From Minisyncoccia bacterium (GTDB taxonomy: Bacteria; Patescibacteriota; Minisyncoccia; Phycocordibacterales; UBA918), in the NCBI GenBank assembly GCA_046598345.1, contig JBKJIT010000001.1, positions 108,251 to 172,250 of the forward strand: a stretch of 64,000 nt of DNA. Reading direction: 5' to 3'. A program made the position numbers and the translations under genes. This document shows positions 16,155 through 40,159 of the stretch, piece after piece. Position 1 is the stretch's first letter, and each line of letters opens with the position of its first letter. The notes beneath the pieces were generated by a model that saw nothing but the letters and a program-made list of their open reading frames with translations, was not told where the DNA came from and did not search any database.

Positions 16155-17130
16155 TGATGTCTTTCATTGATGCGCTCCCCATGCCATATTTTTCTTTGAG
16201 CATTTCAAAGTGTTCAAGAATTTCTTCAAGGTTTCTAAAATTTTCTTTTTGGTTTGTGCCCACATTGTGTGGATGCCACCAGAGGTGAAATATTTCACCG
16301 CACTTTGCTGCGTGCGTCATGCTGTCTTTTATTCGTTTCATACGCAGAGATTCAAAAGGTGAGAGAAATTTATTCCAGGGTCGCAAAAAACGGCTCGCTT
16401 TAATGTCGACAGGAAACGGAGGTGATTCTTCTGGAAGTGCATATGTGTGATGTCCACTTATATTTAGGTAGTGGTCGAGAAGACGAAGACCCCGAATAAA
16501 AAGAGTTTGCTCACTATCTTTCCTCGGGGCGTACAGAAAATGTGTTTCGTTTCCACGATACGCATGGATTCCATTTCTTTTGCACGTGCGCAGTGCCTCG
16601 TCGCTCGGCTGATTGCGCGGGAAGACCATTGATTCGGTTGTGACACCGTATGTCTCAGAGATTTTTTTGTGAGCCTCTAAATCCGCTTCAAAGACGTTCG
16701 GTGGGTTGTCGTGTCCGTCCATGCAGTAAAAATGCGAGAAGGTATGGTTGGCAATTTCTTGTCCCGGAGTCGCTAAGATTTTTTCAACAAGGGAAGATCC
16801 AAAATGATATGGATCAGATTTTTCATCGTCGCCAATTTCAGTCGTGTCGAGATGGTGGTAGGCGGAAACACGCTCGTCTTCATATGTTGGCCAGAGTTCA
16901 TGCGGGGGAAGCACGCCATACAGCTCTTCCTTATTTCGTGCCATGAGCATGCCGAGGGTTGCCCACGTGGCGTGGATGTTGTGTGATTTAAAAAGTTCGA
17001 GCATCCGGGGAATTGCCGTCTGTTCTCCGAGTACATGTGGGCCGTATTCCTTAAGTGAGACCTTATCAAACATGCCCCAGAAAAGCTCAAAATCGAGCGA
17101 TATGACGAGATATCCCGGTTTGTGATCCAT
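16117..17130 (-). CDS. polysaccharide deacetylase family protein (CE4/NodB-like)
   Basis: LVISLDFELFWG N-terminus and ANHTFSHF histidine motif. Convergent with the PHP gene. Confidence 0.6.
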   Translation of the reverse strand: MDHKPGYLVISLDFELFWGMFDKVSLKEYGPHVLGEQTAIPRMLELFKSHNIHATWATLGMLMARNKEELYGVLPPHELWPTYEDERVSAYHHLDTTEIGDDEKSDPYHFGSSLVEKILATPGQEIANHTFSHFYCMDGHDNPPNVFEADLEAHKKISETYGVTTESMVFPRNQPSDEALRTCKRNGIHAYRGNETHFLYAPRKDSEQTLFIRGLRLLDHYLNISGHHTYALPEESPPFPVDIKASRFLRPWNKFLSPFESLRMKRIKDSMTHAAKCGEIFHLWWHPHNVGTNQKENFRNLEEILEHFEMLKEKYGMGSASMKDITTLASEQAPSVI

Positions 17131-17155
17131 ATCTTCAACTATAGCCCAGCAATTT

Positions 17156-17204
17156 AAATCCTAAAAGTTTTAAGAAAGAAGCTTTTAGGGATTTCTGTTA
17201 TAAT
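17156..17204. promoter_or_regulatory. 13-bp inverted repeat (aaatcctaaaag / cttttagggattt) abutting a TTATAAT -10 element in a divergent intergenic region; candidate operator
   Basis: Near-perfect palindrome with a 14-nt spacer, 3 nt upstream of ttataat. Lies between the divergent genes 16117..17130(-) and 17239..(+). Confidence 0.4.
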
Positions 17205-17238
17205 TTAAGAGAATTAATAAATTATAATCTATTCTATT

Positions 17239-17601
17239 ATGACATTCGAAGGTCCCAGCCCATCTTCGTCTGAGAAAAAGATGTCAGCGGAGGAATTAGG
17301 GGTTCTTGAAAAAGAATTTGATACACAATTATCTAAAATCCTGTCTGGACAATCGGATATCGTAGCACGTGTAAGGGAATTTTTTAGTTATCCAAAGGCA
17401 GTTGAGAAAAAGCAGTTAGCGCTATCTTCAGCTTATGGCCCGCAGCCCTTCAGTGGCAACATGGAAAATGTGGTAGGACAAGAAACACTCGAGGGTCTTA
17501 TCCGGGATAGTGCTGGCACTGAAAAGCAAAAAGAATATCTTGCAATAAGAACAGAAATAGAAAAGTTACGGGAACAGTATCGATATAACGCGAACATTTA
17601 A
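17239..17601 (+). CDS. hypothetical protein (120 aa)
   Basis: Clean ORF in the intergenic gap. Predicted helical. No recognisable motif. Confidence 0.5.
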   Translation: MTFEGPSPSSSEKKMSAEELGVLEKEFDTQLSKILSGQSDIVARVREFFSYPKAVEKKQLALSSAYGPQPFSGNMENVVGQETLEGLIRDSAGTEKQKEYLAIRTEIEKLREQYRYNANI

Positions 17602-17715
17602 ATTAGCGGAATTATTTCCGACCATTCAGTGATGGTGTAAACATTTTGGAGAAATAAATAAATCCTAAGGTAAAAAAGCATTCATGCTTAAGTCTGCCAA
17701 TTGTAGCGTTTGTAT

Positions 17716-18828
17716 ATGAAAATCCTTATCGCGACAGGTTTATATCCTCCCGACATCGGAGGTCCTGCAACGCATACACTCTTTCTTGAAAAAAATCTTC
17801 CGACGCATGGCATTTCGTACGCTGTGGTTCCCTTTGGTTCCGTACGGAAATATCCTCCGCTCATTCGTCATCTCGTATATGCAGTAAAACTCCTTCGAGC
17901 GGGACGCTCATGTGATGCGCTCTATGCGCTCGATACGGTTTCAGTGGGTTTTCCTTGCATGCTCGCTGCAATACTCCTCCGCAAACCGTTCTATCTTCGT
18001 GTTCCGGGTGATTATGCGTGGGAGCAGGGCCAGCAGCGATGGGGACTTATGGAAACGCTCGATGCGTACCTTGAGGAACGAAAGCACGCGCCGTTTTTTG
18101 TTCGACTTTTTGCATTCATCCAAACGCGTGTGGCGCGTAGAGCGACGCATGTCATTGTGCCAAGTGACTACATGAAACGTGTGGTGACATCATGGGGTAT
18201 TGATGCTCATCGCATTACACGCGTCTACAGTGCTCTTCAATCTCTTGAAGTCCGTGAACCCAAAGAAGTGCTTCGGAAGCAATTTGGTTTAAAAGGATTT
18301 GTGGTCATGACCGCTGCGCGCCTCGTGCCGTGGAAGGGGGTGAGCGCGCTCATTGATGCAATTGCGTCCCTCAGAAAAGAAGGATTCGATGTATCGCTCC
18401 AGGTCGTGGGTGATGGTCCACTCCGAGAGACGCTGAGGAAACGTGCTTGGGAAAAGGGGATTGCAGAGTGTGTGTACTTTCAGGGCGCGGTGTCCCATGA
18501 CCTCCTTGCAAAGTATCTCAAAGCGTCTGATGCGTTTGTGCTTAACACCTCCTATGAGGGAATGTCACATCAACTTCTCGAAGTCATGAGTCTCGGGATT
18601 CCCGTTATTACGACGCCTGTGGGGGGAAACGAAGAACTCATTACCCATATGCAGGAGGGAATTCTTGTACCCTTTAATGATACAGAAAAAATTAAAGAAG
18701 CACTTAAGGAACTATGCGAAAGTGAACAACTTCGGAGCGCACTCGTGGCCCACGCGCGACTCCGACTCTCTGCTTTTTCTGAAGACACGAGCATACGAGA
18801 GATTGTGTCCGTCTTAAAAAACGGATAA
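17716..18828 (+). CDS. glycosyltransferase family 4
   Basis: MKILIATGLYPPDIGGPATH N-terminus. C-terminal EGMSHQLLEVMSLGIPVITTPVGGNEE. Confidence 0.8.
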   Translation: MKILIATGLYPPDIGGPATHTLFLEKNLPTHGISYAVVPFGSVRKYPPLIRHLVYAVKLLRAGRSCDALYALDTVSVGFPCMLAAILLRKPFYLRVPGDYAWEQGQQRWGLMETLDAYLEERKHAPFFVRLFAFIQTRVARRATHVIVPSDYMKRVVTSWGIDAHRITRVYSALQSLEVREPKEVLRKQFGLKGFVVMTAARLVPWKGVSALIDAIASLRKEGFDVSLQVVGDGPLRETLRKRAWEKGIAECVYFQGAVSHDLLAKYLKASDAFVLNTSYEGMSHQLLEVMSLGIPVITTPVGGNEELITHMQEGILVPFNDTEKIKEALKELCESEQLRSALVAHARLRLSAFSEDTSIREIVSVLKNG

Positions 18829-18887
18829 TTTTTAAAATGCGTTCAGGCTTGTAAAGATGCTGTAATAAGATATCGTACTCTCTATCT

Positions 18888-20030
18888 ATGCATGTTGTAA
18901 GCTTAGCGCTTGATCCAAAAACACTCGACCCTGAAAGCGTCGTGGCGTTTCGAAACCGTGCGTACGGGAGACTCACCGAGCACTATTCGATTGTTGTTCC
19001 ATCTCCCGCTACGATGGTGGTGCATCTTTCAGATAAGACTACGGTGTACGGCGTGGGTGGTTTTCATAAAGTGGTGCAGCTTATTTCTATGTACCGGCGC
19101 GCGAGGGCCCTCATTCGTGCAGGGAAGTGTGATGTGATTACCAGCCAGGATATGTACTTCCTCGGTCTCCTCGGTCTTTTCCTCGCGCGCCGGTACCACC
19201 TCGGCTTAGAAGTGCAGGTGCTTGGCATTGAAAAACTCACGCCGTTCCGAAAACGGATTGCGCTCTTTGTGCTACATCGCGCCGGAGTGGTGCGCGCACT
19301 CAGTGATCGTCTTAAAGATCGCCTCATTACTGAGTTTAATGTCCCTGAGAAACTCATTAACGTGGTCACGATCTATGTGGACGTACAGAAGCTTGGTCTT
19401 GATGTGCGATCCTTGAAAGGTAAAGACACAGAGGAGTTTGAACGTCTCACGCGTGCATTCCGCGAACAGTATGGAAGCCGGATGAATTTCCTCTCCGTTT
19501 CAAGGCTCGTGCCGATTAAGCGAATTGAGCTTCAGCTCGAAGCCATCGCTGCACTCAAACAGCGATTTCCGCAGGTAATGCTCCACATTGTAGGGGATGG
19601 TCCAGATGAAGTACGCATCAAGACACTCGTCTCAAACCTTGGACTCGAAAAGGAAGTACTATTCCATGGGTATCAAACCGGATACGCGCTCGGTATGTTC
19701 TACATTGAGTGTGATTGTTTTCTTCTTACTTCCGATTACGAAGGATGGGGGATGGTCATTATTGAGGCTGCGACAGCAGGACTTCCTATCATCATGACTG
19801 ATGTCGGGTGTGCACGTGAATTCATTCGGGATGAGAAAAGCGGGCTCGTCATTCCACCTCAGGATGGGCAGGCGCTCATAGGCGCAATGGAGCGAGTTAT
19901 TACAGACCCGGAATTGAGACAGAAACTCTCGGTCGGCGCAATACAGGCGCTTGCGCAACTACCGAGCTTTGATACGATTCTCATGCGTTATAAAGAAAAT
20001 TGGGAGGTTGCCTTGTCCAGACGGATGTAA
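18888..20030 (+). CDS. glycosyltransferase family 4
   Basis: EGWGMVIIEAATAGLPIIMTDVGCAREFI E-x7-E region. Confidence 0.8.
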   Translation: MHVVSLALDPKTLDPESVVAFRNRAYGRLTEHYSIVVPSPATMVVHLSDKTTVYGVGGFHKVVQLISMYRRARALIRAGKCDVITSQDMYFLGLLGLFLARRYHLGLEVQVLGIEKLTPFRKRIALFVLHRAGVVRALSDRLKDRLITEFNVPEKLINVVTIYVDVQKLGLDVRSLKGKDTEEFERLTRAFREQYGSRMNFLSVSRLVPIKRIELQLEAIAALKQRFPQVMLHIVGDGPDEVRIKTLVSNLGLEKEVLFHGYQTGYALGMFYIECDCFLLTSDYEGWGMVIIEAATAGLPIIMTDVGCAREFIRDEKSGLVIPPQDGQALIGAMERVITDPELRQKLSVGAIQALAQLPSFDTILMRYKENWEVALSRRM

Positions 20031-20039
20031 TTATTTTTT

Positions 20040-20975
20040 ATGAATATACTTATCACAGGAGGAGCAGGGTTTCAGGGAAGCCATCTCGCAGAACGCATGC
20101 TCGCAAAGGGACATTCAGTAACTATCCTCAATACCTTTTCTGATGAGAAAAAGCGCAACATCGCTTCATTCCAGGATAAGCTTAATGTCGTCTTTGGATC
20201 TATCACTGATCCAGTTCTCATTGAAAAGACCGTCCGTGGTCACGATGTGGTATTTCACCTCGCTGCGAATGTGAACGTTGATCACTCACTCTCTGATCCA
20301 AAGAGTTTTCTCGATGTGAACGTTATGGGAACGTTTAATATTTTGGAGCAGGTGCGGGCGCATGGCATCCGTATGATTCATGCATCAACGTGTGAAGTAT
20401 ACGGCGATGGGCATGACCTAAAGGACGGGGAACTGCTCGATGAGACCGCAGAGCTTAAGCCGAAGAGTCCATACGCGGCATCGAAGGCTGCAGCTGACCG
20501 TCTCTGCTACGCGTATCACGCGTCATTTGGGGTAAATGTAACTATCGTGCGCCCGTTTAATATTTTTGGGGAACGACAAAAGAGCGGAACGTTCGGAGCG
20601 CTCATTCCAATTCTCGTACGTAAGGCGATGTCGGGAGAAAAGCTTACGGTTTTTGGCGATGGTACTGCAACGCGTGATTATCTGCACGTCAGTGATCTCG
20701 TGAGTGCGTATGAGCTCGTAATGGATACATCAGGACTCGAAGGAAAAAGTATTAACTTTGCGAGCGGAAAGAACACATCCGTAAAAGAAATTGCAGAATA
20801 TATTGGAAAGAAGTTTAGTGCAGAAGTGAAGCATGGTCCTGCGCGTCCCGGAGAGGTGACGCGTTTCCCTGCAGATATTTCGTACGCAGAGAGTATTGGA
20901 TTTGCTCCACAAATTTCAATATGGAATGGCATCGACCGGTACATTGAATGGGCGAAAAAAGAAGCTCAAGTGTAA
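20040..20975 (+). CDS. NAD-dependent epimerase/dehydratase (dTDP-glucose 4,6-dehydratase / UDP-sugar epimerase family)
   Basis: ITGGAGFQGSHL. Catalytic YAASK (YxxxK) motif. 311 aa. Confidence 0.85.
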   Translation: MNILITGGAGFQGSHLAERMLAKGHSVTILNTFSDEKKRNIASFQDKLNVVFGSITDPVLIEKTVRGHDVVFHLAANVNVDHSLSDPKSFLDVNVMGTFNILEQVRAHGIRMIHASTCEVYGDGHDLKDGELLDETAELKPKSPYAASKAAADRLCYAYHASFGVNVTIVRPFNIFGERQKSGTFGALIPILVRKAMSGEKLTVFGDGTATRDYLHVSDLVSAYELVMDTSGLEGKSINFASGKNTSVKEIAEYIGKKFSAEVKHGPARPGEVTRFPADISYAESIGFAPQISIWNGIDRYIEWAKKEAQV

Positions 20976-21007
20976 GTAGGGTGAGTGGGTAGCTTTGAAT
21001 AGTCGCC

Positions 21008-22402
21008 TTGAACAGACGGTATACTATCTGTGTGCCAAAACGAGATCTCTCACAATTCATTCCACCTATTGATCCTGCAAAACATGCAGCGGGTGTTTTA
21101 AATTCAGTGTTAGAAAAAACGGGAACACAATCTCAATCGCCAGCGAGTGAAGACACTCTGGCACGTATGGAGAATGCATGGGGTCATATTGAGGCAGGAA
21201 AGGCGCTGACGGGAGGATCAGTTTTGGAGCGAAGTGCTTCCGGCCGTTCGCTCCGACTTCTCATTCTTTCGCGCGATCTTGCGCTCTTTGAAGGAGGAAG
21301 TCTTGCTCAGAATCAGCTTCTCGAACTTGCCGAGCGTTTTTCAGAAGTTCATGTCATCGTACTCTCAGTGACCGGGACGGGATCCAAAGTCCCTCTGCGC
21401 ATTCAGAATCAAGTATGGGTGTACCCGACGTACTCAAAGTACTGGTGGAAAACAGGCTTCGATGCGTATCGCATCGCGGAGGAGCAGCTATCATTTGCGC
21501 AGGGTTTTCGAGCAGATCTCGTCATTGCACACGATCCGTTTGAATCTGGAGTGGCCGCGCATTTCATTGCAAAAAAGTACGAGCGGCCACTCCAGATTCA
21601 TGTGCGCGAAGATTTTTACGATCCGCATTTTAAGCTTCTGGATGAACACAACAGTCTAAGGGTGTTTGTGGCGTCCTATGCACTCAGTCACGCAGAATCG
21701 ATTCGGACAAAGACAGCGTATATTCGTGAACGCTTGATCTCGGAGGATCCTCACCTGGAAAAGCGCACAGAAGTACTTCCAAACTATATTAATTTAAAAG
21801 CTTGGCGAGATGCCGTCCCAGCGTTCAGTCTGGAGATGCGCTATCCTCAATTTAAATTCATCATCGTTCATATTTCACAGATGACTAAAGCATCGCACAC
21901 GCAAGAGGTTATTAACGGTACGCTTCGACTCCTCAGTCAGTACCCTATGATGGGACTCGTCATTGTTGGCTCGGGGCCACTTCGTGCTACGTACGAGAAA
22001 TATGTTACTGAACTCAAGATGACGCGTCAGATTATTTTTGAACCCATGCCTGACGAAGTGCTCTCGCATTTAAAAACGGCGCACGTATGTATCCACCTCT
22101 CCATTGACGACGCGGAATCACACATCCCACTCATGGCGGCTGCGGCAAAGATCCCCATGATCATCAATGCAGAAGCAGGTAAGGAAATATTTAAAGACAA
22201 TGAATCTGCATTTCTCTGCGGAGCGACAGACGTAGAGTGTGTGGGGGCAAGGCTTAATACATTTCTTAATCAAAATGCGCTTCGGACAAGTTTTGGTGAT
22301 GAGGCAGAAAATGCTATCTTTACCCATATTGAGCAAGATTTTGAGTCATATATGGACGCCTATGCGGGAAGCATAGAACGTTCCTTTGCGCAGGCGAGTT
22401 AG
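21008..22402 (+). CDS. GT-B fold glycosyltransferase (GT4-like, divergent); start uncertain
   Basis: Two Rossmann-like halves (LRLLILSRDLALFEGGS ... GLVIVGSGP ... IPMIINAEAGKE). Low similarity to the canonical motif. Confidence 0.5.
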   Translation: MNRRYTICVPKRDLSQFIPPIDPAKHAAGVLNSVLEKTGTQSQSPASEDTLARMENAWGHIEAGKALTGGSVLERSASGRSLRLLILSRDLALFEGGSLAQNQLLELAERFSEVHVIVLSVTGTGSKVPLRIQNQVWVYPTYSKYWWKTGFDAYRIAEEQLSFAQGFRADLVIAHDPFESGVAAHFIAKKYERPLQIHVREDFYDPHFKLLDEHNSLRVFVASYALSHAESIRTKTAYIRERLISEDPHLEKRTEVLPNYINLKAWRDAVPAFSLEMRYPQFKFIIVHISQMTKASHTQEVINGTLRLLSQYPMMGLVIVGSGPLRATYEKYVTELKMTRQIIFEPMPDEVLSHLKTAHVCIHLSIDDAESHIPLMAAAAKIPMIINAEAGKEIFKDNESAFLCGATDVECVGARLNTFLNQNALRTSFGDEAENAIFTHIEQDFESYMDAYAGSIERSFAQAS

Positions 22403-22428: not shown

Positions 22429-23439
22429 ATGCGACTACTCATCACCACTCAGACAGTTGATACAGAAGACCCTATTCTTGGTTTTTTTCATGGGTGGCTG
22501 ATTGAACTCTCTAAGCATGTTGAACATATTCATGTGGTGTGTCTTCGTAAAGGAGCCTACACCCTTCCGCAAAACATCACCGTTCACTCGTTGGGAAAAG
22601 AAGATCGACAAAATCGGCTCGCGTACGTTCTTACCTTTTATAAAAATGTGTGGAAGCTCCGCAACGAATACGACATTGTGTTTTCTCATATGAATCCCCA
22701 CTACATTGTTCTTGCAGGATTATTTTGGCTCATAACCGGCAAACGAATCTTTCTCTGGAGAAATCATGCGAAGATGAACATGAAGAGTCGTATCGCGGCG
22801 TGGTTTTCAAGACGTGTGTTTTACACTTCTCCGTATGCATGTATGCGGCGATTCCGGCATTCTATGCAGATGCCGGTGGGAATTGATACGGAATTATTTA
22901 AGCCACAGCCAGAAATCGTGCGCGAAGAGGGAACAGTCCTTTTTCTCGGCCGTCTTTCTCCAGTGAAGCGTCCTGAACTCATGATGGAAAGCACAAAGCA
23001 TGTGCCGGAGCTTCGTATACATGTGTACGGGGACGAGCCCGGCGGCTCGCATACGTATGGTGACGCACTGAGGGCACAGAGTGGGGAAAACACTTCCTTT
23101 TTTCCTTCGCTTCCAAATTATAAAACTCCGAAAGTGTACGCTGCTCACGATATCTATGTAAATCTTACTCCAGAAGGAAGTATGGATAAAACGGTTCTTG
23201 AGGCCGCAGCATGCGGCACACTCGTGCTCGTTTCAAATCGCTCGTTCCAGGATGTATTACCACCGGAATGTACTCTCGCCCATGACCGACCGGAAGATAT
23301 TGGAGCAGCACTTCGAACACTCATACATCTTGCCCCAGAGAAAAAAAATAGCTATCGTGTAACCTTAAACCAAATGGTTCTTGAGTCCCATTCTCTAAAG
23401 AAACTTGTGAACACCCTCATTAGTCAGTTTGCATCATGA
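22429..23439 (+). CDS. glycosyltransferase (GT4/GT1-like)
   Basis: TVLFLGRLSPVKRPELMM and LEAAACGTLVLVSN GT-B C-terminal half. Confidence 0.6.
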   Translation: MRLLITTQTVDTEDPILGFFHGWLIELSKHVEHIHVVCLRKGAYTLPQNITVHSLGKEDRQNRLAYVLTFYKNVWKLRNEYDIVFSHMNPHYIVLAGLFWLITGKRIFLWRNHAKMNMKSRIAAWFSRRVFYTSPYACMRRFRHSMQMPVGIDTELFKPQPEIVREEGTVLFLGRLSPVKRPELMMESTKHVPELRIHVYGDEPGGSHTYGDALRAQSGENTSFFPSLPNYKTPKVYAAHDIYVNLTPEGSMDKTVLEAAACGTLVLVSNRSFQDVLPPECTLAHDRPEDIGAALRTLIHLAPEKKNSYRVTLNQMVLESHSLKKLVNTLISQFAS

Positions 23440-24278
23440 CACATATCGATTTCATAGGTATCGGAGCGCAAAAATCAGCCACATCGTGGGTGTATGCCTG
23501 TCTCTACGAACATCCGCAGATTTGTGCACCGATTAAGGAAATACACTTCTTTAGTCGCCCTCGCTTTAGCGAGGGAAAAGAGTGGTATGAAGATCATTTT
23601 AAACGCTGTGGAGAAGGAAAACTGTGTGGGGAATTTTCGACCTCGTATCTGTATTCGAAAGACGCGCCCCTGCGCATTCATTCTTTGTACCCGAACGCTA
23701 AACTTATTGCCATCCTTAGGAATCCTATTGATCGCGCATACTCGCACTATCGAAATGCAATCAAGGCGGGAGAAATCAAGGAATCAGAATCGTTTGAATC
23801 GTTCAGCGCACGGGAAGTGAGTGTGCTGGAGCAGGGTCTCTTCACACAGCAGCTCACGCGGTATTTCGAACTTTTCCCGCGCGAGCAAGTCCTCATTCTT
23901 ATTCAGGAAGATATTGAAAAAAGTCCGGAGGCATTTATGGAACGGATTTTTACGTTTCTAGGAGTCGACTCTACTTTTGTGCCAACTATGCTCCATACGC
24001 AAGTAAATGTTGGACGCATCCCAAAACGTGTGTTTATTGACCGCATGATGACGCACACTGCAGAATTTCTCCGAAAGATTGGATTTGATCGCTTTGTGTG
24101 GATTATTCGGAAACTTGGAATGCCCGACTTTGTGCGTTCATTTAATACTAAGGAGGGCAAGAAAGAAGGTAAGCCTCCCTATGATCGCGGAGCACTCGCA
24201 GCGTATTTTCGAGATGATGTGCGCGGCCTCACAGAATTTTTGGGGCGTGATATGGTAAAGGAATGGAACCTCGAGTAA
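23436..24278 (+). CDS. sulfotransferase family protein (PAPS-dependent)
   Basis: 5'-PSB motif GAQKSATSW near the N-terminus and 3'-PB-like ILRNPIDRAYSHY. 280 aa. Confidence 0.7.
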   Translation: MTHIDFIGIGAQKSATSWVYACLYEHPQICAPIKEIHFFSRPRFSEGKEWYEDHFKRCGEGKLCGEFSTSYLYSKDAPLRIHSLYPNAKLIAILRNPIDRAYSHYRNAIKAGEIKESESFESFSAREVSVLEQGLFTQQLTRYFELFPREQVLILIQEDIEKSPEAFMERIFTFLGVDSTFVPTMLHTQVNVGRIPKRVFIDRMMTHTAEFLRKIGFDRFVWIIRKLGMPDFVRSFNTKEGKKEGKPPYDRGALAAYFRDDVRGLTEFLGRDMVKEWNLE

Positions 24279-25087
24279 CACATACGCTACGCGATACCCT
24301 CGTAAGTCTCCTGGGGATTTTGGGTATTACAACTCTCTATAACCTGAGAGAAAAACGCCGCGGACCCCTCGTGCGTGTCCTCGTCTTTCATGATGTTACC
24401 GACGCCGTTTGGTTTGATTCTGTCATGAAGGAACTCAGTCTGCATGTTCATTTTCTCAGCCCGAGCGCCTTTGAAGCGGGTAATTTTATGTCGGATCGTG
24501 TAAATGTACTCGTAACCTTCGATGATGGGTACGCATCATGGGTAGAGATCTGTCTTTCGATTCTTGCTAAGTATAAATGCACTGCGGTATTTCTTGTAAA
24601 TTCAGGACTCCTCGATTCAAAAGACAAGAATACGAAAGCGACGTACGTACGTGAGCGCCTCCTCCTTTCCACAATGCGAGAGGTACTGACGTGGGATGGG
24701 CTGAGGGCGCTCGCTCACGAGGGACATACGATTGGGGGACACACGAGAACGCATGCGCGGCTCGGAGAGTTACAGGATGATGTGGCACTAGAAGAAATTC
24801 GAGGTGATAAAGCACGCGTTGAAGCAGAGCTTGACTCAACGCTCACCTGGTTTGCGTATCCCTTTGGAAATCCGGGAGACTACACGAAGCGTACCGCCGC
24901 GCTCGTTAGGGAATCGGGGTACCAGTATGCGTGCACAACTGAGGCGGCATTTGTGTCACCGGGAGGAGAGAGGATGGTGATCCCGCGTCTCTGTTTGCCA
25001 GACGGCCTTTCTCCACGCGCCGTTCGCTCGTGGGTGAGTGGAGGATATGATGTGCTTCGTAAACTAAAAAAACTATGTGTGGAATAA
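24263..25087 (+). CDS. polysaccharide deacetylase (CE4/NodB homology domain)
   Basis: VLVTFDDGYASW (TFDDG motif) and HTRTH histidine motif. Confidence 0.75.
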   Translation: MEPRVTHTLRDTLVSLLGILGITTLYNLREKRRGPLVRVLVFHDVTDAVWFDSVMKELSLHVHFLSPSAFEAGNFMSDRVNVLVTFDDGYASWVEICLSILAKYKCTAVFLVNSGLLDSKDKNTKATYVRERLLLSTMREVLTWDGLRALAHEGHTIGGHTRTHARLGELQDDVALEEIRGDKARVEAELDSTLTWFAYPFGNPGDYTKRTAALVRESGYQYACTTEAAFVSPGGERMVIPRLCLPDGLSPRAVRSWVSGGYDVLRKLKKLCVE

Positions 25088-26907
25088 ACGGTATTACGAC
25101 AAACGACCCGGCTCGCGTAGATCGAATGAACCAAGCAATTATTCATCGTGGTCCAGACGGTTCGCGGATTTGGGAAGGGAACGGGATTACTCTCGGCCAC
25201 AATCGACTTGCGATTATTGATCTTTCCGACCTTGCAATTCAGCCCATGGCAGGAATTGATGGTCGATACGAGATCGTTTTTAACGGAGAAATCTATAATT
25301 ATCGTGAACTCCGTGCACAGCTTGCATCTAAATACACTTTCAAAACGGAAAGTGATACGGAAGTGCTCATCACTGCGTACCACGAGTGGGGCGAAGCGAT
25401 GTTTGCACGCCTTCGGGGTATGTTCGCGTTTGGTCTCTGGGATAATCGGGAGAAGACGCTTACACTTGTGCGCGACCATATGGGCATTAAACCCCTCTAT
25501 TACACTCAAAAAGAGGGTGTGCTTGCGTTTTCGTCTGAAATACCTGGGTTGCTACAGGGGATAGAAAATCGTGTCCTCAATCGGCGGCGGGTTGGAATGT
25601 ACCTCTCAATGGAATATGTGCCAGGTCCCAAAACGCTCATTGAAGGAGTGTATAAGCTTCAACCCGGACATCTACTCGTGTATGCGCGCGGAGCATATAC
25701 AGTTCGCTCGTATCTTGACGCACTTCCAAAAAAACGTGTGGTCACGGAGGAGGAGATCTACCGTACGATTGATGAAGGAGTGCACCGGCAAATGGTGTCC
25801 GATCGTCCTATCGGCGCATACCTCTCTGGAGGGTTTGATTCTAGTATCGTGGTGCATCACATGGCGAAGCATTCACCGCACACTAAAACGTATTCCGTCG
25901 ATTTTGAAGCAGTGCGGGGTGAGGAGGAGGACAGTGTCAAATTTAATGCCGATGCAGCTCTTGCGAAGCAGACTGCCGCCTTTTATGGCACTGACCATAA
26001 GACTCTTACAATCGGGCTTCAAGACGTGCGCGAGAACATGGAACGTGTGCTTTCGTCCATGAATGAACCGGTCGCAAATTCCACTGCGATCACACAATTT
26101 CTCCTCAGTGATTTTGTACGAAAGGACGGTGTCATTGTTGTCTTAGGCGGCGATGGAGGAGATGAGCTCTTTGCTGGTTACACGCGACACCGACTTGCGA
26201 TGGGTGCGTATATGTACCAGCAACTGCCACACTTCCTTCAACGACTCGGTGGAAGCCTAAGTGCACGTGTTGGAAAGCTTTCCACGCCGTTCTACACGCC
26301 GCTTCACCGCACACTAATGATTAAGGACGAAAAGAAAATTGCTCCCTTTCTTACGAGTGGACTTTCCATTAATCATGAGGTGGAGACTTACTTCAATGCG
26401 CTCTACGAGGACCCGCAGTTTAATGGAGTGCACCCCCTTGATGTATTTATGAATGTCGATCGGAGAACGTGGCTCGCTGATGAGTGTTTCGTGCGTTCCG
26501 ATTACACATCTATGGCGCACGGCATTGAACTCCGAGTGCCACTCCTTGATCTTGATATTATCAAGCTCGCGGACCAACTCTCAATCTGGAAGAAGGTGCT
26601 ACCGCATGAGGGAAAGCGGATTATTCGGAGTACGTATAAACCGTATTTACCAGCCCATCTCTACAACCAACCTAAACGTGGTTGGCTCAGCCCAGCGGCA
26701 AAATGGTTTCGGGACCCCGAGATAAGTTCGTTTGCTCGCGAAGTATTTTCATCGGAGTATTACTCAGGTCTTGACGGTCTATTCAACTGGGAAAGTGTAC
26801 AGTCTATGCTGAATACACATATTGAAAAGAGAGGATATTATCTGTATCCACTTTGGAATATTCTTGTCCTGCAGGTCTGGGCACGGAAGCACAACATATT
26901 TACATGA
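25075..26907 (+). CDS. asparagine synthase (glutamine-hydrolysing) family amidotransferase
   Basis: N-terminal MCGI nucleophile. SGGFDSS PP-loop. 610 aa. Confidence 0.85.
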   Translation: MCGINGITTNDPARVDRMNQAIIHRGPDGSRIWEGNGITLGHNRLAIIDLSDLAIQPMAGIDGRYEIVFNGEIYNYRELRAQLASKYTFKTESDTEVLITAYHEWGEAMFARLRGMFAFGLWDNREKTLTLVRDHMGIKPLYYTQKEGVLAFSSEIPGLLQGIENRVLNRRRVGMYLSMEYVPGPKTLIEGVYKLQPGHLLVYARGAYTVRSYLDALPKKRVVTEEEIYRTIDEGVHRQMVSDRPIGAYLSGGFDSSIVVHHMAKHSPHTKTYSVDFEAVRGEEEDSVKFNADAALAKQTAAFYGTDHKTLTIGLQDVRENMERVLSSMNEPVANSTAITQFLLSDFVRKDGVIVVLGGDGGDELFAGYTRHRLAMGAYMYQQLPHFLQRLGGSLSARVGKLSTPFYTPLHRTLMIKDEKKIAPFLTSGLSINHEVETYFNALYEDPQFNGVHPLDVFMNVDRRTWLADECFVRSDYTSMAHGIELRVPLLDLDIIKLADQLSIWKKVLPHEGKRIIRSTYKPYLPAHLYNQPKRGWLSPAAKWFRDPEISSFAREVFSSEYYSGLDGLFNWESVQSMLNTHIEKRGYYLYPLWNILVLQVWARKHNIFT

Positions 26908-26937: not shown

Positions 26938-28056
26938 ATGTTCTCTTTTTTCAAAGACAAACAGATTGCCCTCATTTTACTCGCAGTGGTGAGCGTGATA
27001 ATCGCATTTACGTATGTCGACAGTCATGCCATAAACGCGATAGGAAGCCCGCGGGTATGGAGTCCGGATACACAAACCTATATAGAAGCAATGAAATTCA
27101 TAGAGGGAAGCAGCACAGGGCCTCTCGAGCCTGTTGTGGCGACCCGGCTCCTCACTTCACCGTTATTGCTCACCTCGGCGCTGGGAATAAAATACATAGT
27201 AGGGGACTACGGATACGGCATTTTGTTTCTAAATTTTGTGCTGTATTTAGTGTCCGTTATTCTTTTTTATCAGTTAGCCCTTCAAATATACAAACAGGAA
27301 AGAATAGCTTTCATCGCTGCTTTTTTATATATCACCAATTGGTGTCTGTTTTCATTTGGCACTACCTATCTTTCAGATATGGGTGGTTGGTTTTTCTTCT
27401 TGCTCACCTCACTCCTCAGTGTTCTGTACTATCTTAAAAATAGAAGCGTATATTTGTATGCCGCAATAGCTGCCGCATGTATTGGCGTGCTCTTTAAAGA
27501 ATACGGCGCGCTCGGGATTATCAGTTTAGGAATGCTTATCATACTAGGCGCTCGTACATGGGGGCAGAAGATTCGAGATATTTTAGTTGCAGGGGTTTCT
27601 TTTCTATTGGTCTTAGTGGCCTACCACGCATGGTTTTATTTCCAGTTTGACTGGAGCTATGTAGATTGGTACCAGTATAATCACCAGCAATATCGAGAGA
27701 ATACCTACAAAACACTTGGTGCTGCCATTAGTACACTTATAAAAGTTATCGGGTGGGTGTTTCTCGCAGGATGGCCTTTTTTCGCGATGGGAGTATGGTA
27801 TGAGATCAAAGATGTCCTAGGACGAAATTACAGTCGCGCTATTCTACTTCTAGGACTCTTGCCTGCCTCGCTCTTTTTCCTTGTGTGGCCTGCTTTTACT
27901 CAGCGTGTTGCATTCACACTCGTTCCGTGGGTTGCATTAATAGCGGCGTATGGTCTCTCAAAAATACAAAAAACATGGTTTCTTGTAGTGCTACTCCTCA
28001 TCTATGCACTCATAAACTATCACGTGGACATACTTATGATAGTAATTAATATATAA
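26938..28056 (+). CDS. polytopic integral membrane protein, putative GT-C-like glycosyltransferase / polymerase
   Basis: About 10 TM helices with one larger loop near the N-terminus. No soluble domain. Located inside the glycan cluster. Confidence 0.5.
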   Translation: MFSFFKDKQIALILLAVVSVIIAFTYVDSHAINAIGSPRVWSPDTQTYIEAMKFIEGSSTGPLEPVVATRLLTSPLLLTSALGIKYIVGDYGYGILFLNFVLYLVSVILFYQLALQIYKQERIAFIAAFLYITNWCLFSFGTTYLSDMGGWFFFLLTSLLSVLYYLKNRSVYLYAAIAAACIGVLFKEYGALGIISLGMLIILGARTWGQKIRDILVAGVSFLLVLVAYHAWFYFQFDWSYVDWYQYNHQQYRENTYKTLGAAISTLIKVIGWVFLAGWPFFAMGVWYEIKDVLGRNYSRAILLLGLLPASLFFLVWPAFTQRVAFTLVPWVALIAAYGLSKIQKTWFLVVLLLIYALINYHVDILMIVINI

Positions 28057-28061
28057 ATTGC

Positions 28062-29533
28062 TTAGTTGGTAGTTGTAACCTTATCTTTTAAATCTCCCTT
28101 TTCATAATATTCCTTTTCGCCTCCTATCGCATCGAAATCTGCTTTTTTGCCAGTTATGATACTTTCTGCTGCTGCAATTCCCATTTCGAGTGAATGATCC
28201 TGATTGTTGTAACGAAAACGGCCGGGACGCCCAATGTAAAACAGATTGCTGAAACGATCGAGAAAACCTTTGATGTGTCCGAGATTGGATTCGTAGTGTA
28301 GATCATAAATGGGGTACACGTCTTTTTGAGTGATGCGGTAATAAGTTCTCACCTCCTCTTTTTTCAAGAAGCCGGCTTTTTCGAGATGGGGAAGTATGTA
28401 CGCAAACAGTTCATCCTTATTCATAGACCAGACTGGCTCATCTTCAAAGCAGAAAAACTCAAGGAAGAGGGATGTTGTACCAGAGGGAGACATCCATGAA
28501 CTAAAATTTTTCATTTCTGACATTCGTGCGACAGGCACTTCTTTCTTGGGGAAATATATCCATTGATCTCTGGTCACGGATTCTTTGTTGAGCGTAATGA
28601 AGAGATATACTTGGTGCCGATATCGTAAATTTTTGAGGGCAGGCGGAACTTCTGGTGGAAGGGTAGTATCGAGAAGGTTTACAAAATTCACGATTGGTAT
28701 TGATTCAACTAGGTACTCACATTCAATCTCCAGCTCTTCTTCGCCGGCTCGTGCAATTACTTTGGTAATGCGGTTTTCTTCTATGCATATCTTTTGCACT
28801 TCGACATTGAACATAAAGAATACCCCTTTTGTTCCAGATTTTCTTGTATCGTCCGGTAAATAAGTCCCGTACCCTTACGAGGATAATAAAAGGTATCCAC
28901 AAGTGATTTTGGCTTATTTCGTGCCTTACTGGAGAATATTTTCAGTATCATGTCCTGCGCAATAGTACGGAGACTCAATCCTTTAATGCGTTGACCGGCC
29001 CAGTCGGGGTGAATGGTTGATGCGGGAATACCCCAGATCTTTTCTGTGTAGTTAATCATGTTGAACTCCCCCAATGTCCGACCAAAATTAGCGATCACAT
29101 AATCTTCAAAGTTTTTAATTTTCTTACCGAGAATGCCGTACTGCATCTTTGCTAGTGCGTAGTCGGTAAGGATGCGTATTGATGTAAAGAGTCCGATATT
29201 GCGCAGTGCCTGAATAGGATTCACCGGATAGTCATAAAATTTGCCATCAATGAACTGGCGAGTGTACCGATTAACGGTTATCCAGTCATCGTGGAGCACT
29301 TCTTCGATCATTTCGTACAGGTATGGATTTTTTGAAAAAAACCGATGGGGACCGTTGTCTGTATAAAAGGTTCCAACGTCTTCTTTGAAAGCATACGTTT
29401 TTGAAAGGCCTCCAACTTCAGAAGTCTTTTCCAGGACTAGGAATTTTTTACCAGCCTTTGCAAGCTCAAGTGCAGCGGCCATGCCTGCGGGCCCAGCGCC
29501 TATTATGAGCGTTTCTATCTTAATCCTGCGCAT
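28062..29533 (-). pseudogene. FAD-dependent oxidoreductase (amine-oxidase / phytoene-desaturase-like) split by a frameshift into two 250-aa ORFs (28781..29533 N-terminal half, 28062..28814 C-terminal half)
   Basis: The upstream ORF has the FAD dinucleotide motif IIGAGPAGMAAALELAKAG. The downstream ORF reads as the C-terminal substrate/FAD domain. The two ORFs overlap by 34 nt in different frames. Confidence 0.55.
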
Positions 29534-29701
29534 TATGTGTTTTTATAAAAAATGATGAGCTGTACATTATTCAAGCCTTCAATCTTCATGAATCGTTTCA
29601 TATGGTACTACGCAGCCAACACATTATCAATTTAAAACCTTTGTTTCGAATACATCTCGCAAAGAATATATGCGAATAGACATTTCCTTTCTGTTACATA
29701 C

Positions 29702-30151: not shown

Positions 30152-30289
30152 TCTACTACAACTTCTACGCAGATGTTTTAATTATGTATGAATGGGGATG
30201 TGGGACTTTCGACGAGAGAACCTAATCTTTACTCACCGAGTTAAAGGTGGTAGTCTTCGTTCATAAACGTGACAAAATAAGGCTAAAAT

Positions 30290-31126: not shown

Positions 31127-31193
31127 GATTGAATAGAATATTTTCTGAAAGGAATGTGTTATAAAGAGAGTGCTATTAAAATAAAATTAACTC

Positions 31194-31778: not shown

Positions 31779-31782
31779 ACTC

Positions 31783-32736: not shown

Positions 32737-32763
32737 CTATTAAAAGGTGGTTCGTCGCAATCT

Positions 32764-34702: not shown

Positions 34703-34737
34703 CTTTAGAGGAATGGGGTGTGTTATTATTGGAACCC

Positions 34738-35784: not shown

Positions 35785-35799
35785 TTTTCTCCCTAACGC

Positions 35800-36972: not shown

Positions 36973-36975
36973 TCT

Positions 36976-40149: not shown

Positions 40150-40159
40150 AAGCCATATT

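What the first reader, a model, noticed from the sequence alone, without database searches (positions are those of the whole stretch)
23436..24278. Sulfotransferase embedded among glycosyltransferases, with a PAPS synthase 25 kb downstream: predicted sulfated glycan
The ORF carries the PAPS 5'-phosphosulfate binding motif (GAQKSATSW) and the 3'-phosphate binding region (RNPIDRAYSHY) of cytosolic/carbohydrate-type sulfotransferases. It sits between a GT and a CE4 deacetylase. The same cluster encodes a fused ATP sulfurylase/APS kinase (49675..51321) that would make the PAPS donor. Bacterial glycan sulfation is uncommon (Nod factors, some mycobacterial and marine glycans). It would be essentially undescribed for a small-genome or CPR-type bacterium.
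Basis: partly seen in the sequence, partly recalled or inferred. Interest (0 to 1): 0.8.

Follow-up and report, generated by a model that had tools for sequence, protein, structure and literature searches.

The report
Glycan sulfation module in CPR bacteria
A tiny-genome (CPR/Patescibacteria) bacterium carries a heparan-sulfate-type sugar sulfotransferase inside a 40-kb surface-glycan locus that also encodes its own PAPS (activated sulfate) synthase, so this lineage very probably decorates a surface glycan with sulfate, which has not been described for these organisms.

Summary

The gene is translationally coupled to a GT4 glycosyltransferase upstream and to a CE4 deacetylase downstream. The CE4 model resembles the GlcNAc de-N-acetylases PplD, PgaB and IcaB.

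ORF 49675-51321 is a bifunctional ATP sulfurylase/APS kinase above NCBIfam's equivalog cutoff, with all catalytic motifs intact.

The GT-ST-CE4 arrangement recurs in over 20 CPR species (Kaiserbacteria/Paceibacterota), including a closed 1.05-Mb genome. The sulfotransferase and Sat/CysC share contigs, 4-38 kb apart, bracketing a variable glycan region. No cysH or sulfite reductase lies in the window or next to Sat/CysC in relatives.

GT4-sulfotransferase fusion proteins exist in the wider family. No searchable paper describes sulfation in CPR.

This is a new member of a known kind of system. The sulfation position (N or O) and the acceptor sugar remain unknown.

The parts
23436..24278 (+). PAPS-dependent carbohydrate sulfotransferase, 280 aa, with no TM segment or signal peptide. 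Key residues: PSB loop G8-S17 (Lys13), catalytic Glu35/His37 in KEIHFF, and 3'-PB Arg95/Ser103.
22429..23439 (+). GT4-like glycosyltransferase. Its stop codon overlaps the sulfotransferase start codon (ATGA).
   Evidence: Pfam Glyco_trans_1_2 / Glycos_transf_1. Junction sequence. Adjacent upstream of the ST in 21 of 23 CPR loci. A homologous GT is fused to an ST domain in P0251, E 6e-16.
24263..25087 (+). CE4 metal-dependent GlcNAc de-N-acetylase of the PplD/PgaB/IcaB structural type. Its start lies 16 nt inside the end of the sulfotransferase gene.
25075..26907 (+). AsnB-type glutamine amidotransferase that overlaps the CE4 stop. It belongs to the conserved block and is probably a carboxylate amidation step.
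   Evidence: Pfam. NCBIfam asn_synth_AEB 410.6 bits (cutoff 267.1), and similar to the XrtA/PEP-CTERM EPS amidotransferase. Conserved after the CE4 gene in relatives.
49675..51321 (+). Bifunctional ATP sulfurylase / APS kinase (Sat/CysC), the PAPS synthase.
   Evidence: Pfam. NCBIfam NF004040 778.6 bits against a cutoff of 669. Motifs QTRNP, HRAH, GRDHAG, GLSCSGKS, DGD all present. Lies on the same contigs as the ST in relatives.
51609..53843 (+). Polytopic Wzy_C (O-antigen ligase/polymerase family) protein with a C-terminal TPR domain. It always follows Sat/CysC directly, and is the candidate polymerase or ligase for the glycan.
   Evidence: Pfam. 13 hydrophobic segments. The order Sat/CysC - Wzy_C/TPR - murB is conserved in L026-L031.
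44559..45818 (-). Wzx-type flippase (Polysacc_synt), implying export of a lipid-linked unit that was modified in the cytoplasm.
   Evidence: Pfam. 11 hydrophobic segments.
12149..22402 (.). Conserved 5' block of the locus: epimerase, GT4, ATP-grasp, PHP-like metallohydrolase, a second CE4 (- strand), three GT4s, epimerase/dehydratase, GT4.
   Evidence: Pfam. Collinear in about 20 CPR loci at 30-83% identity and in the closed Kaiserbacteria genome.
26938..49602 (.). Middle region of the locus, which varies between species: GT-C/PMT_2, GtrA, UGM-like, UGDH-like, methyltransferases, SDR enzymes, GT4s, GT8, a second AsnB-like gene, KpsF/KdsB, WecB.
   Evidence: Pfam/NCBIfam. Gene content differs between relatives. 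GC content is lower here, 0.36-0.43 against 0.44-0.50 in the flanks.

Best explanation
This is the sulfation module of a large surface-glycan locus (about 12-54 kb) in a Kaiserbacteria/Paceibacteria-type CPR bacterium.

Shown here:
- ORF 23436-24278 has the fold, the PAPS-binding loops and the catalytic Glu/His of the heparan-sulfate glucosaminyl sulfotransferase clade.
- It is translationally coupled to a GT4 upstream and to a PgaB/IcaB/PplD-type GlcNAc de-N-acetylase downstream.
- A catalytically intact bifunctional Sat/CysC is encoded at the 3' end of the same locus.
- This arrangement is conserved across many CPR species.

Inferred:
1. Sat/CysC converts sulfate plus 2 ATP into PAPS in the cytoplasm.
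2. GT4 enzymes build an oligosaccharide that contains a GlcNAc-type hexosamine, on a lipid carrier at the inner face of the membrane.
3. The soluble sulfotransferase moves the sulfuryl group from PAPS onto that hexosamine. Lys13 and Ser103 hold the donor and Glu35 deprotonates the acceptor. The CE4 enzyme removes the N-acetyl group of the same or a neighbouring residue.
4. The modified unit is flipped by the Wzx-type protein, then polymerised or ligated by the Wzy_C-TPR protein.

Whether the sulfate goes on the freed amine (N-sulfation) or on a hydroxyl (O-sulfation) is not resolved.
For: Sulfotransferase identity:
- Pfam PF00685 E 4e-18.
- Family profile against PDB: 3rnl E 2.8e-33, 3-OST-3A1 E 2.5e-23, NDST1 NST domain E 2.9e-20.
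- Invariant Q12, T16, S17, E35, H37, F38, F39, R95, S103.

Glycan acceptor:
- ATGA overlap with the upstream GT and a 16-nt overlap with the CE4 gene.
- GT-ST-CE4 is conserved in 20-21 of 22-23 CPR loci and in closed genome CP064968.1.
- GT4-ST, ST-GT4 and DUF2334-MT-GT4-ST fusion proteins occur in the wider family. One has an ST domain 46% identical to the window's. Another has a GT homologous to the window's upstream GT.
- The distant Elusimicrobiota homologue also sits in a glycan cluster.

Hexosamine acceptor:
- The nearest characterised sulfotransferases act on glucosamine.

PAPS supply:
- NF004040 equivalog above cutoff, with all motifs intact.
- Coordinates were verified on JAWVHE010000111.1 (19 kb apart) and on Ga0456293_0000003 (38 kb apart). 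The distance is 4 kb in L011.
- Sat/CysC is always followed by Wzy_C-TPR and murB, and never accompanied by cysH/cysJI.

Cytoplasmic location: neither the ST nor the CE4 has a TM-like segment.
Against: - There is no biochemical evidence of any kind, and the acceptor sugar and sulfation position are unknown.
- No sulfate transporter, PAP phosphatase or priming (initiating) glycosyltransferase was found in the window.
- Absence of cysH or sulfite reductase could be checked only in 64 kb plus about 20-kb stretches of relatives, not in a whole genome.
- The PSB lysine is arginine in 3 of 27 family members.
- A lysine of 3-OST-3 in the 'MEKTPSYF' segment aligns with Phe67 here, so acceptor recognition must differ from the animal enzymes.
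- The CE4 partner's closest structural relatives (PgaB, IcaB, PplD) work outside the cytoplasm. If this CE4 does too, it is not directly coupled to the sulfotransferase.
- Distant family members occur without a CE4 neighbour (L023, L015).
Confidence: 0.75

Rival explanations
1. Sub-variant A, split NDST-like N-sulfation. The CE4 enzyme de-N-acetylates a GlcNAc residue of the lipid-linked intermediate in the cytoplasm, and the sulfotransferase then sulfates the freed amine to give GlcNS. This matches what animal NDST does within one polypeptide.
For: - The ST and CE4 genes overlap or abut in 20 of 22 loci.
- Local motifs resemble NST: GAQKSATS against GPQKTGTT, and NPIDRAYSHY against NPADRAYSWY.
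- The CE4 belongs to the GlcNAc de-N-acetylase structural group.
- Both proteins lack TM segments and signal peptides.
Against: - Overall profile scores slightly favour 3-OST-3 (86 bits) over NST (76 bits).
- The catalytic motif has the His of the 3-OSTs (EIHFF), not the Gln of NST (EIQFF).
- Related sulfotransferases occur without a CE4.
- To my knowledge, N-sulfated sugars have not been reported in bacterial glycans.
Confidence: 0.28
2. Sub-variant B, O-sulfation. The sulfotransferase sulfates a hydroxyl of a hexosamine or another sugar, as the 3-OSTs or NodH do. The CE4 makes an independent modification, for example leaving a free amine that gives a zwitterionic glycan.
For: - The best characterised sequence match is 3-OST-3A1, and the E-x-H-F-F catalytic motif carries the 3-OST-type His.
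- All characterised bacterial glycan sulfotransferases (NodH, KpsS, Stf0) are O-sulfotransferases (PMC11625862).
- Family members occur in clusters without a CE4.
Against: The very tight and conserved ST-CE4 coupling is left unexplained. The Asp of the 3-OST Glu-His-Asp network (HFFD) is Ser40 here.
Confidence: 0.45
3. Sat/CysC serves ordinary assimilatory sulfate reduction, with cysH and sulfite reductase located elsewhere in the genome. Its position in the glycan locus is incidental, and the sulfotransferase merely draws on that PAPS pool.
For: - Only part of the genome could be inspected.
- Sat/CysC is more conserved (71-83% identity) than the sulfotransferase (57-72%), as a housekeeping gene might be.
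- It lies at the boundary with housekeeping genes (murB, secA).
Against: - No PAPS/APS reductase, sulfite reductase or cysteine synthase is in the 64-kb window or within 10 kb of Sat/CysC in five related contexts.
- The gene always lies between glycan genes and the Wzy_C-TPR gene.
- In L011 it is only 4 kb from the ST.
- From general knowledge, CPR genomes largely lack amino-acid biosynthesis.
Confidence: 0.12
4. The sulfotransferase acts on a non-glycan acceptor (lipid, small metabolite, peptide or protein tyrosine), and its place among the GT genes is coincidental.
For: The Sulfotransfer_1 superfamily includes small-molecule and polyketide enzymes. In L015 the gene sits away from any glycan locus, next to phosphatase and NUDIX genes.
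Against: - Synteny with GTs is conserved and translationally coupled.
- GT4-ST fusion proteins exist.
Confidence: 0.07

Closest known systems
Animal heparan-sulfate glucosaminyl sulfotransferases: 3-OST-1/-3/-5, and the NST domain of NDST1
   Same: - Same 5'-PSB loop with Lys.
- Same E-x-(H/Q)-F-F catalytic segment.
- Same 3'-PB R/N-P-x-x-R-A-x-S-x-Y segment.
- PAPS is the donor and a hexosamine in a glycan is the acceptor (inferred here).
   Different: - Only 23-27% identity.
- Soluble and cytoplasmic, not a Golgi type-II membrane protein.
- Has a roughly 100-residue helical C-terminal region shared only with 3rnl.
- An acceptor-region Lys of 3-OST-3 is Phe67 here.
PDB 3rnl, an uncharacterised sulfotransferase from Alicyclobacillus acidocaldarius
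   Different: Its function is unknown, so it says nothing about the acceptor. It comes from a different phylum, and its genomic context was not examined.
Rhizobial Nod-factor sulfation (NodH sulfotransferase, NodPQ PAPS synthesis, NodB CE4 deacetylase)
   Same: The same logic: a dedicated PAPS-making enzyme, a CE4 GlcNAc de-N-acetylase and a carbohydrate sulfotransferase encoded together to modify a GlcNAc-based glycan in the cytoplasm (NodH described in PMC11625862; the rest is general knowledge).
   Different: - NodH is a PF13469-type enzyme with an RXG PSB motif, whereas the CPR enzyme is PF00685/HS-type.
- NodPQ is a CysD/CysN-CysC type enzyme, whereas this one is a Sat-CysC fusion.
- After NodB the amine is acylated, not sulfated.
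- The Nod product is a secreted lipo-chitooligosaccharide, not a Wzx/Wzy-type glycan.
Synechan (xss) cluster of Synechocystis sp. PCC 6803
   Same: A Wzx/Wzy-type polysaccharide cluster containing sulfotransferase genes (XssA, XssE) among many GTs. It is the experimentally established model for a bacterial sulfated exopolysaccharide (PMC8205485).
   Different: - It is cyanobacterial and plasmid-borne, with its own XssQRS regulators.
- No PAPS synthase or CE4 in the cluster is described in the passages read.
- Sequence relatedness between the sulfotransferases was not tested here.
Mesorhizobium loti KpsS, and mycobacterial Stf0/Stf1
   Same: Characterised bacterial PAPS-dependent sulfotransferases that act on capsule, glycolipid or trehalose.

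Membership tests
PAPS-dependent sulfotransferase superfamily (Pfam Sulfotransfer_1, PF00685) | Profile score above the curated gathering threshold | tested here: met
   66.2 bits against a cutoff of 22, E 4e-18, residues 5-180.
PAPS-dependent sulfotransferase superfamily (Pfam Sulfotransfer_1, PF00685) | 5'-phosphosulfate-binding (PSB) P-loop with a conserved Lys, and a 3'-phosphate-binding (PB) Arg/Ser | tested here: met
   G8-x-G-A-Q-K13-S-A-T16-S17 aligns with the PSB loops of 3-OST-3 and NDST1. R95 and S103 align with their 3'-PB residues. All are invariant in the family, except that K13 is Arg in 3 of 27 members.
PAPS-dependent sulfotransferase superfamily (Pfam Sulfotransfer_1, PF00685) | Alpha/beta sulfotransferase fold | tested here: met
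   [not shown]
PAPS-dependent sulfotransferase superfamily (Pfam Sulfotransfer_1, PF00685) | PAPS-dependent sulfuryl transfer activity | not testable with these tools
   Requires an enzyme assay.
Heparan-sulfate glucosaminyl sulfotransferase clade (3-OSTs / NST) | Closest structural and sequence similarity, and a catalytic Glu in the E-x-(H/Q)-F-F segment | tested here: met
   [not shown]
Heparan-sulfate glucosaminyl sulfotransferase clade (3-OSTs / NST) | Conserved acceptor-binding residues for heparan sulfate, and the Asp of the 3-OST Glu-His-Asp network | tested here: not met
   The Lys in the 3-OST-3 segment 'MEKTPSYF' aligns with Phe67. The Asp in 'HFFD' aligns with Ser40. The roles of those residues are recalled from the literature and were not tested.
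Heparan-sulfate glucosaminyl sulfotransferase clade (3-OSTs / NST) | Golgi-lumenal type-II membrane topology, with heparan sulfate as substrate | tested here: not met
   There is no hydrophobic segment, and the P-loop starts at residue 8. The host is bacterial. The substrate is not testable.
Bifunctional N-deacetylase/N-sulfotransferase (NDST) | Deacetylase and sulfotransferase fused in one polypeptide | tested here: not met
   Two separate, overlapping genes. All 120 best homologues are about 275-285 aa with sulfotransferase domains only. The fusions found in the wider family are with GT4, and with DUF2334 once, but not with CE4.
Bifunctional N-deacetylase/N-sulfotransferase (NDST) | Deacetylase homologous to the NDST deacetylase domain | tested here: not met
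   [not shown]
Bifunctional N-deacetylase/N-sulfotransferase (NDST) | N-sulfation of the de-N-acetylated glucosamine | not testable with these tools
   Needs an enzyme assay and product analysis.
Bifunctional sulfate adenylyltransferase/adenylylsulfate kinase (NCBIfam NF004040) | Equivalog model score above the curated cutoff | tested here: met
   778.6 bits against a cutoff of 669.
Bifunctional sulfate adenylyltransferase/adenylylsulfate kinase (NCBIfam NF004040) | Intact catalytic motifs in both domains, as opposed to a regulatory APS-kinase-like domain | tested here: met
   QTRNP175, HRAH181, GRDHAG269, P-loop GLSCSGKS381, DGD410, LIAP454, KGLY493. The motif definitions come from general knowledge.
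CE4 GlcNAc de-N-acetylases of the PgaB/IcaB/PplD type (partner gene 24263-25087) | PF01522 above threshold, Asp-His-His metal triad motifs, and closest fold | tested here: met
   [not shown]
CE4 GlcNAc de-N-acetylases of the PgaB/IcaB/PplD type (partner gene 24263-25087) | Extracytoplasmic location (signal peptide or membrane anchor) | tested here: inconclusive
   No segment reaches the hydropathy threshold. Residues 12-26 form a short hydrophobic helix that the model packs against the barrel with pLDDT above 95. No dedicated signal-peptide predictor was available.

The most novel reading that the evidence does not exclude
Kaiserbacteria/Paceibacteria-type CPR bacteria make a glycosaminoglycan-like surface glycan that carries N-sulfated glucosamine (GlcNS). 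They would do this with a natural prokaryotic 'split NDST': a cytoplasmic PgaB/IcaB-type CE4 de-N-acetylase translationally coupled to a heparan-sulfate-type sulfotransferase. The pair would be fed by a PAPS synthase that these reduced genomes keep solely for this purpose, possibly to mediate attachment to host cells. That would be the first N-sulfated glycan outside animals, and a ready-made bacterial enzyme pair for heparin bioengineering.
Probability: 0.22. Interest if true: 0.8.

Novelty: new member of a known kind. Interest (0 to 1): 0.55.

Why it matters
CPR/Patescibacteria are ultrasmall episymbionts with genomes of about 1 Mb that have lost most biosynthesis. Here about 40 kb, roughly 4% of such a genome, is devoted to a surface-glycan locus, and an ATP-expensive PAPS synthase appears to be retained for it. 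That points to sulfated surface glycans as a conserved and probably important trait, for example for host attachment, charge, metal binding or phage evasion.

Very few bacterial polysaccharide sulfotransferases have been characterised (reviewed in PMC11625862), and none comes from CPR.

The family is abundant: more than 1000 clusters at 90% identity. It is soluble, small, and structurally in the heparan-sulfate clade. It is also naturally paired with a bacterial GlcNAc de-N-acetylase. The heparin-biomanufacturing field currently builds that enzyme combination artificially, because animal NDST expresses poorly in bacteria (PMC13353177).

The prediction is directly testable with recombinant proteins.

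Tried and rejected
- **PHP-like protein (15351-16154) as the missing PAP phosphatase.** Only a sub-threshold CehA/McbA metallohydrolase hit (60.9 bits, cutoff 80) and no informative PDB sequence match. Not supported.
- **IMPase-family gene next to the out-of-context sulfotransferase in L015, as CysQ.** CysQ score 58 against a cutoff of 229, and it scores better as HisN/IMPase. Inconclusive.
- **A second sulfotransferase in the window.** A family-profile search of all six frames finds only the one gene.
- **Rfam and tRNA scans.** Only tRNA-Ile at 1886-1960. No riboswitch near the sulfur genes.
- **Promoter/terminator consensus scan of 17-31 kb.** No more sites than in shuffled sequence, so uninformative.
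- **NCBIfam classification of the SDR enzymes and GT4s, to deduce the sugars.** Every hit is below cutoff except WecB, KdsB and KpsF.
- **Literature searches for sulfation in CPR.** Four queries and two CPR metabolism papers returned nothing relevant.
- **Whole-genome check for cysH / sulfite reductase.** Not possible. A repeat look-up of P0126 returned the same context again.
- **Sequence-only discrimination of N- from O-sulfation.** Profile scores (86 against 76 bits) and motifs give mixed signals.
Full report
**The observation**

ORF 23436..24278 (+ strand, ATG, 280 aa) exists as described. GAQKSATSW is residues 10-18 and RNPIDRAYSHY is residues 95-105. Pfam gives Sulfotransfer_1 at E 4e-18 (66 bits, cutoff 22) and Sulfotransfer_3 at E 1e-16.

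The upstream ORF 22429..23439 is a GT4-type glycosyltransferase. The downstream ORF 24263..25087 is a CE4 polysaccharide deacetylase. The junctions are tight. The GT stop and the ST start share ATGA. The CE4 ATG lies 16 nt before the ST stop, with AAGGA immediately upstream.

ORF 49675..51321 has PUA_2, ATP-sulfurylase and APS_kinase domains. It passes the NCBIfam equivalog NF004040, 'bifunctional sulfate adenylyltransferase/adenylylsulfate kinase' (778.6 bits, cutoff 669). The catalytic motifs of both halves are present: QTRNP, HRAH, GRDHAG, P-loop GLSCSGKS, DGD. So this is not the inactive, regulatory kinase-like domain seen in some fusions.

**Genomic setting**

Every ORF of the window was scanned against Pfam.
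- Positions about 12.1-53.8 kb form one glycan-biosynthesis locus, almost entirely on the + strand.
- It contains at least nine GT4s, a GT8-like gene, a GT-C/PMT_2 protein, GtrA, four SDR epimerase/dehydratases, two CE4s, two AsnB-type amidotransferases, an ATP-grasp enzyme and several methyltransferases.
- It also contains WecB, KdsB, a KpsF-type isomerase, a Wzx-type flippase (44559-45818, - strand), and a 744-aa Wzy_C protein with a TPR tail (51609-53843).
- Housekeeping genes flank it: tRNA-Ile, murD and murC on the left; murB, secA, obg and gatB on the right.
- There is no PAPS/APS reductase, sulfite reductase, cysteine synthase, CysQ or sulfate transporter anywhere in the 64 kb.
- The middle of the locus (28-50 kb) has lower GC (0.36-0.43) than the two ends (0.44-0.50).

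**What the protein is**

The closest solved structures by sequence are an uncharacterised Alicyclobacillus sulfotransferase (3rnl, E 5e-23) and then the heparan-sulfate enzymes. These are 3-OST-3A1 (E 1e-18), the NDST1 N-sulfotransferase domain (E 9e-14), 3-OST-5 and 3-OST-1. Cytosolic SULTs score only around E 1e-3. With a 27-sequence family profile the values become 2.8e-33, 2.5e-23 and 2.9e-20.

- then a drop to 15.7 (olefin-synthase ST), about 14 (tyrosylprotein STs), 13 or less (cytosolic SULTs), 10.7-12.9 (mycobacterial Stf0/1/9) and 7.9 (HS 2-OST).

Residue mapping from the printed alignments:

| Element | This protein | NDST1 | 3-OST-3 |
|---|---|---|---|
| PSB loop | GAQK13SATS | GPQKTGTT | GVKKGGTR |
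| Catalytic segment | KE35IH37FF | EEIQFF | AEPHFF |
| 3'-PB segment | R95NPIDRAYS103HY | INPADRAYSWY | RDPVTRAISDY |

Q12, T16, S17, E35, H37, F38, F39, R95 and S103 are invariant in the family. K13 is Lys in 24 of 27 members and Arg in 3.

Two residues of the animal enzymes are not kept: Phe67 replaces the Lys of 'MEKTPSYF', and Ser40 replaces the Asp of 'HFFD'. The protein has no hydrophobic segment, and its P-loop starts at residue 8. It is therefore a soluble cytoplasmic enzyme, which fits a PAPS-dependent reaction.

**Who has it**

The sulfotransferase has 1279 cluster-level homologues at E<=1e-5. The best 120 are 57-72% identical and 266-285 aa long.

A scan of one genome per species returned 24 loci. 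All are from CPR MAGs (Candidatus Kaiserbacteria, Candidatus Paceibacterota, MAGs labelled 'uncultured Candidatus Saccharibacteria', and Candidatus Magasanikbacteria at 43%), apart from one Elusimicrobiota hit at 37%. Candidatus Paceibacterota resolves to the phylum Minisyncoccota, formerly Patescibacteria/CPR.

A CE4 orthologue lies on the closed 1,054,716-bp chromosome CP064968.1, which NCBI names Candidatus Kaiserbacteria bacterium. That chromosome shows the same block, including the sulfotransferase.

At greater distance the superfamily is very large: 3308 representatives of 50%-identity clusters at E<=1e-30.

**Conserved neighbourhood**

tblastn of all window proteins against the loci shows a collinear block:

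epimerase - GT4 - ATP-grasp - PHP-like hydrolase - CE4 (- strand) - GT4 - GT4 - (epimerase) - GT4 - GT4-like - ST - CE4 - AsnB-like - truncated UGDH-like - GT4

Across 23 CPR loci:
- The CE4 gene follows the ST directly in 20 of 22 evaluable cases, and a 21st (L006) has a truncated copy.
- The spacing between the two is -37 to +9 nt.
- The GT4-like gene precedes the ST in 21 of 23.

**Fusion proteins**

Among the best distant relatives are multidomain proteins:
- GT4-ST (P0246, 666 aa; P0251, 537 aa);
- ST-GT4 (P0254, 684 aa);
- DUF2334-methyltransferase-GT4-ST (P0252, 1150 aa).

The ST domain of P0246 is 46% identical to the window protein over its full length. The GT part of P0251 aligns with the window's upstream GT at E 6e-16, in the same GT-then-ST order.

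The Elusimicrobiota homologue sits in an ABC-transporter-type glycan cluster with a GT2, a second sulfotransferase and an FkbM methyltransferase, but no CE4. So the glycan association holds for the whole family, while the CE4 pairing is specific to the CPR lineage.

**Link to PAPS synthesis**

The best 120 Sat/CysC homologues are 71-83% identical. Where a name is given, it is 'bifunctional sulfate adenylyltransferase/adenylylsulfate kinase [Candidatus Paceibacter...]'.

Nine contig lengths recur in both hit lists: 174316, 72963, 83090, 72791, 128545, 40632, 65334, 56959 and 88317. Two further Sat/CysC contigs equal the contigs of ST loci L004 (83253) and L016 (204587).

Coordinates confirm this:

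| Contig | ST position | Sat/CysC position | Distance |
|---|---|---|---|
| JAWVHE010000111.1 | 27448-28281 | 47372-49012 | 19 kb |
| Ga0456293_0000003 | 26574-27410 | 65069-66709 | 38 kb |
| L011 | 10001-10822 | 14935-16548 | 4 kb |
| Window | 23436-24278 | 49675-51321 | 25 kb |

In every context Sat/CysC is followed by the Wzy_C-TPR gene (directly, or after one small methyltransferase gene in L030 and L031), then murB and secA. It is preceded by variable glycan genes, and no cysH/cysJI appears.

The locus therefore has three parts: a conserved 5' block containing ST-CE4, a variable middle, and a conserved 3' block beginning with Sat/CysC. The two halves of the sulfation pathway mark the two conserved ends.

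**Mechanism**

Shown: the fold, the donor-binding and catalytic residues, the operon structure, conservation, physical linkage to an intact PAPS synthase, and the fusion to GTs.

Inferred:
1. Sat/CysC makes PAPS.
2. GT4 enzymes assemble a hexosamine-containing oligosaccharide on a lipid carrier at the cytoplasmic face.
3. The sulfotransferase sulfates it, and the CE4 de-N-acetylates the same or a nearby GlcNAc.
4. Wzx flips the unit, and the Wzy_C-TPR protein polymerises or ligates it.

N- versus O-sulfation cannot be decided. The CE4 coupling and the NST-like PSB and PB motifs favour N-sulfation. The slightly better 3-OST score, the 3-OST-type His, the precedent of bacterial O-sulfotransferases, and CE4-less relatives favour O-sulfation.

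My estimates:
- 0.9 that it is an active PAPS-dependent sulfotransferase;
- about 0.8 that the acceptor is the locus glycan;
- about 0.75 for the whole picture;
- 0.25-0.3 for N-sulfation specifically.

**Comparison with known systems, and novelty**

It works like the rhizobial NodH/NodPQ/NodB set and like the synechan xss cluster (PMC8205485). Its catalytic domain is nearest to the animal HS sulfotransferases. It is not a member of the NDST family: the genes are not fused and the deacetylase is not homologous. It also lacks the HS-binding residues and the Golgi topology of the 3-OSTs.

A 2024 review lists only a handful of bacterial polysaccharide or glycolipid sulfotransferases (NodH, KpsS, Stf0) and six bacterial genera with sulfated polysaccharides (PMC11625862). 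Searches combining 'sulfotransferase' with CPR, Patescibacteria or lineage names found nothing relevant. Two CPR metabolism papers do not mention PAPS or sulfation.

I classify it as a new member of a known kind: a PAPS-dependent glycan sulfation module, in a lineage where it has not been described. If N-sulfation is proven it would be upgraded.

The applied angle is real. Engineers currently fuse bacterial CE-family deacetylases to animal NST because NDST expresses poorly in bacteria (PMC13353177).

**Limits**

Everything is computational. Absence of assimilatory genes was checked only in the window and in short stretches of relatives. No sulfate importer, PAP phosphatase or priming transferase was identified. 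Topology calls rest on a simple hydropathy scan.

Noticed in passing
window 48850-49602 and 41968-42975: KdsB (CMP-Kdo synthetase; NF003952 280.9 bits, cutoff 193) and a KpsF/GutQ-family arabinose-5-phosphate isomerase with CBS domains (TIGR00393 233 bits, cutoff 203.7) lie in the variable part of the locus. This indicates a Kdo-like ulosonic acid in a bacterium that is not expected to have LPS. No kdsA was seen in the window.
   Followed up: partly
window 12149-53843; L026-L033: The locus has the architecture of an O-antigen or capsule locus. The 5' and 3' blocks are conserved. The middle has lower GC (0.36-0.43 against 0.44-0.50), and its gene content and length (4-38 kb) differ between related species. 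It is inserted between murC/murD and murB.
   Followed up: partly
window 51609-53843: A 744-aa Wzy_C protein with about 13 hydrophobic segments and a C-terminal TPR domain always follows Sat/CysC. CPR bacteria are not expected to have an outer membrane, so it could be a polymerase or a PglL-like O-oligosaccharyltransferase that glycosylates surface proteins.
   Followed up: no
window 30290-31126: A nucleotide-sugar dehydrogenase-like protein of only 278 aa has the N-terminal and central domains but lacks the C-terminal UDP-binding domain. It is conserved at 62-68% identity and the same length in relatives.
   Followed up: no
window 28062-29533 (- strand): A UDP-galactopyranose-mutase-like gene appears split into two overlapping 250-aa ORFs: an NAD_binding_8 N-terminal part and a weak GLF C-terminal part. 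An independent Logan assembly shows the same split. It may be a frameshift or a pseudogene.
   Followed up: no
window 14158-16154: An ATP-grasp enzyme (ATPgrasp_Ter) and a PHP-like / CehA-McbA-type metallohydrolase form a conserved pair in the 5' block of the locus in nearly all relatives. Their function is unknown.
   Followed up: partly
window 9957-11966: A VirD4/TrwB-like type IV secretion coupling protein (669 aa) lies just upstream of the glycan locus.
   Followed up: no
window 58246-58686; L028 18183-18518: A small 4-TM protein of the PF04020 family ('mycobacterial 4 TMS phage holin', E 2e-31) is conserved between secA and obg, in a housekeeping rather than a prophage context.
   Followed up: no
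L015 7763-11619: In one CPR MAG the sulfotransferase (56% identical) lies outside any glycan locus, next to an IMPase-family phosphatase, a histidine-phosphatase-family protein and a NUDIX hydrolase. The IMPase-family protein scores below the CysQ cutoff.
   Followed up: partly
L012 1675-3153: The CE4 ORF downstream of the sulfotransferase in this Kaiserbacteria MAG is about 492 aa, nearly twice the usual length. This suggests a CE4 fused to an extra C-terminal domain, or a missed stop codon.
   Followed up: no
window 25075-26907 and 40160-41962 (- strand): The locus contains two AsnB-type glutamine amidotransferases. The first resembles the XrtA/PEP-CTERM exopolysaccharide amidotransferase family, which suggests amidated carboxylates in the glycan.
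   Followed up: no
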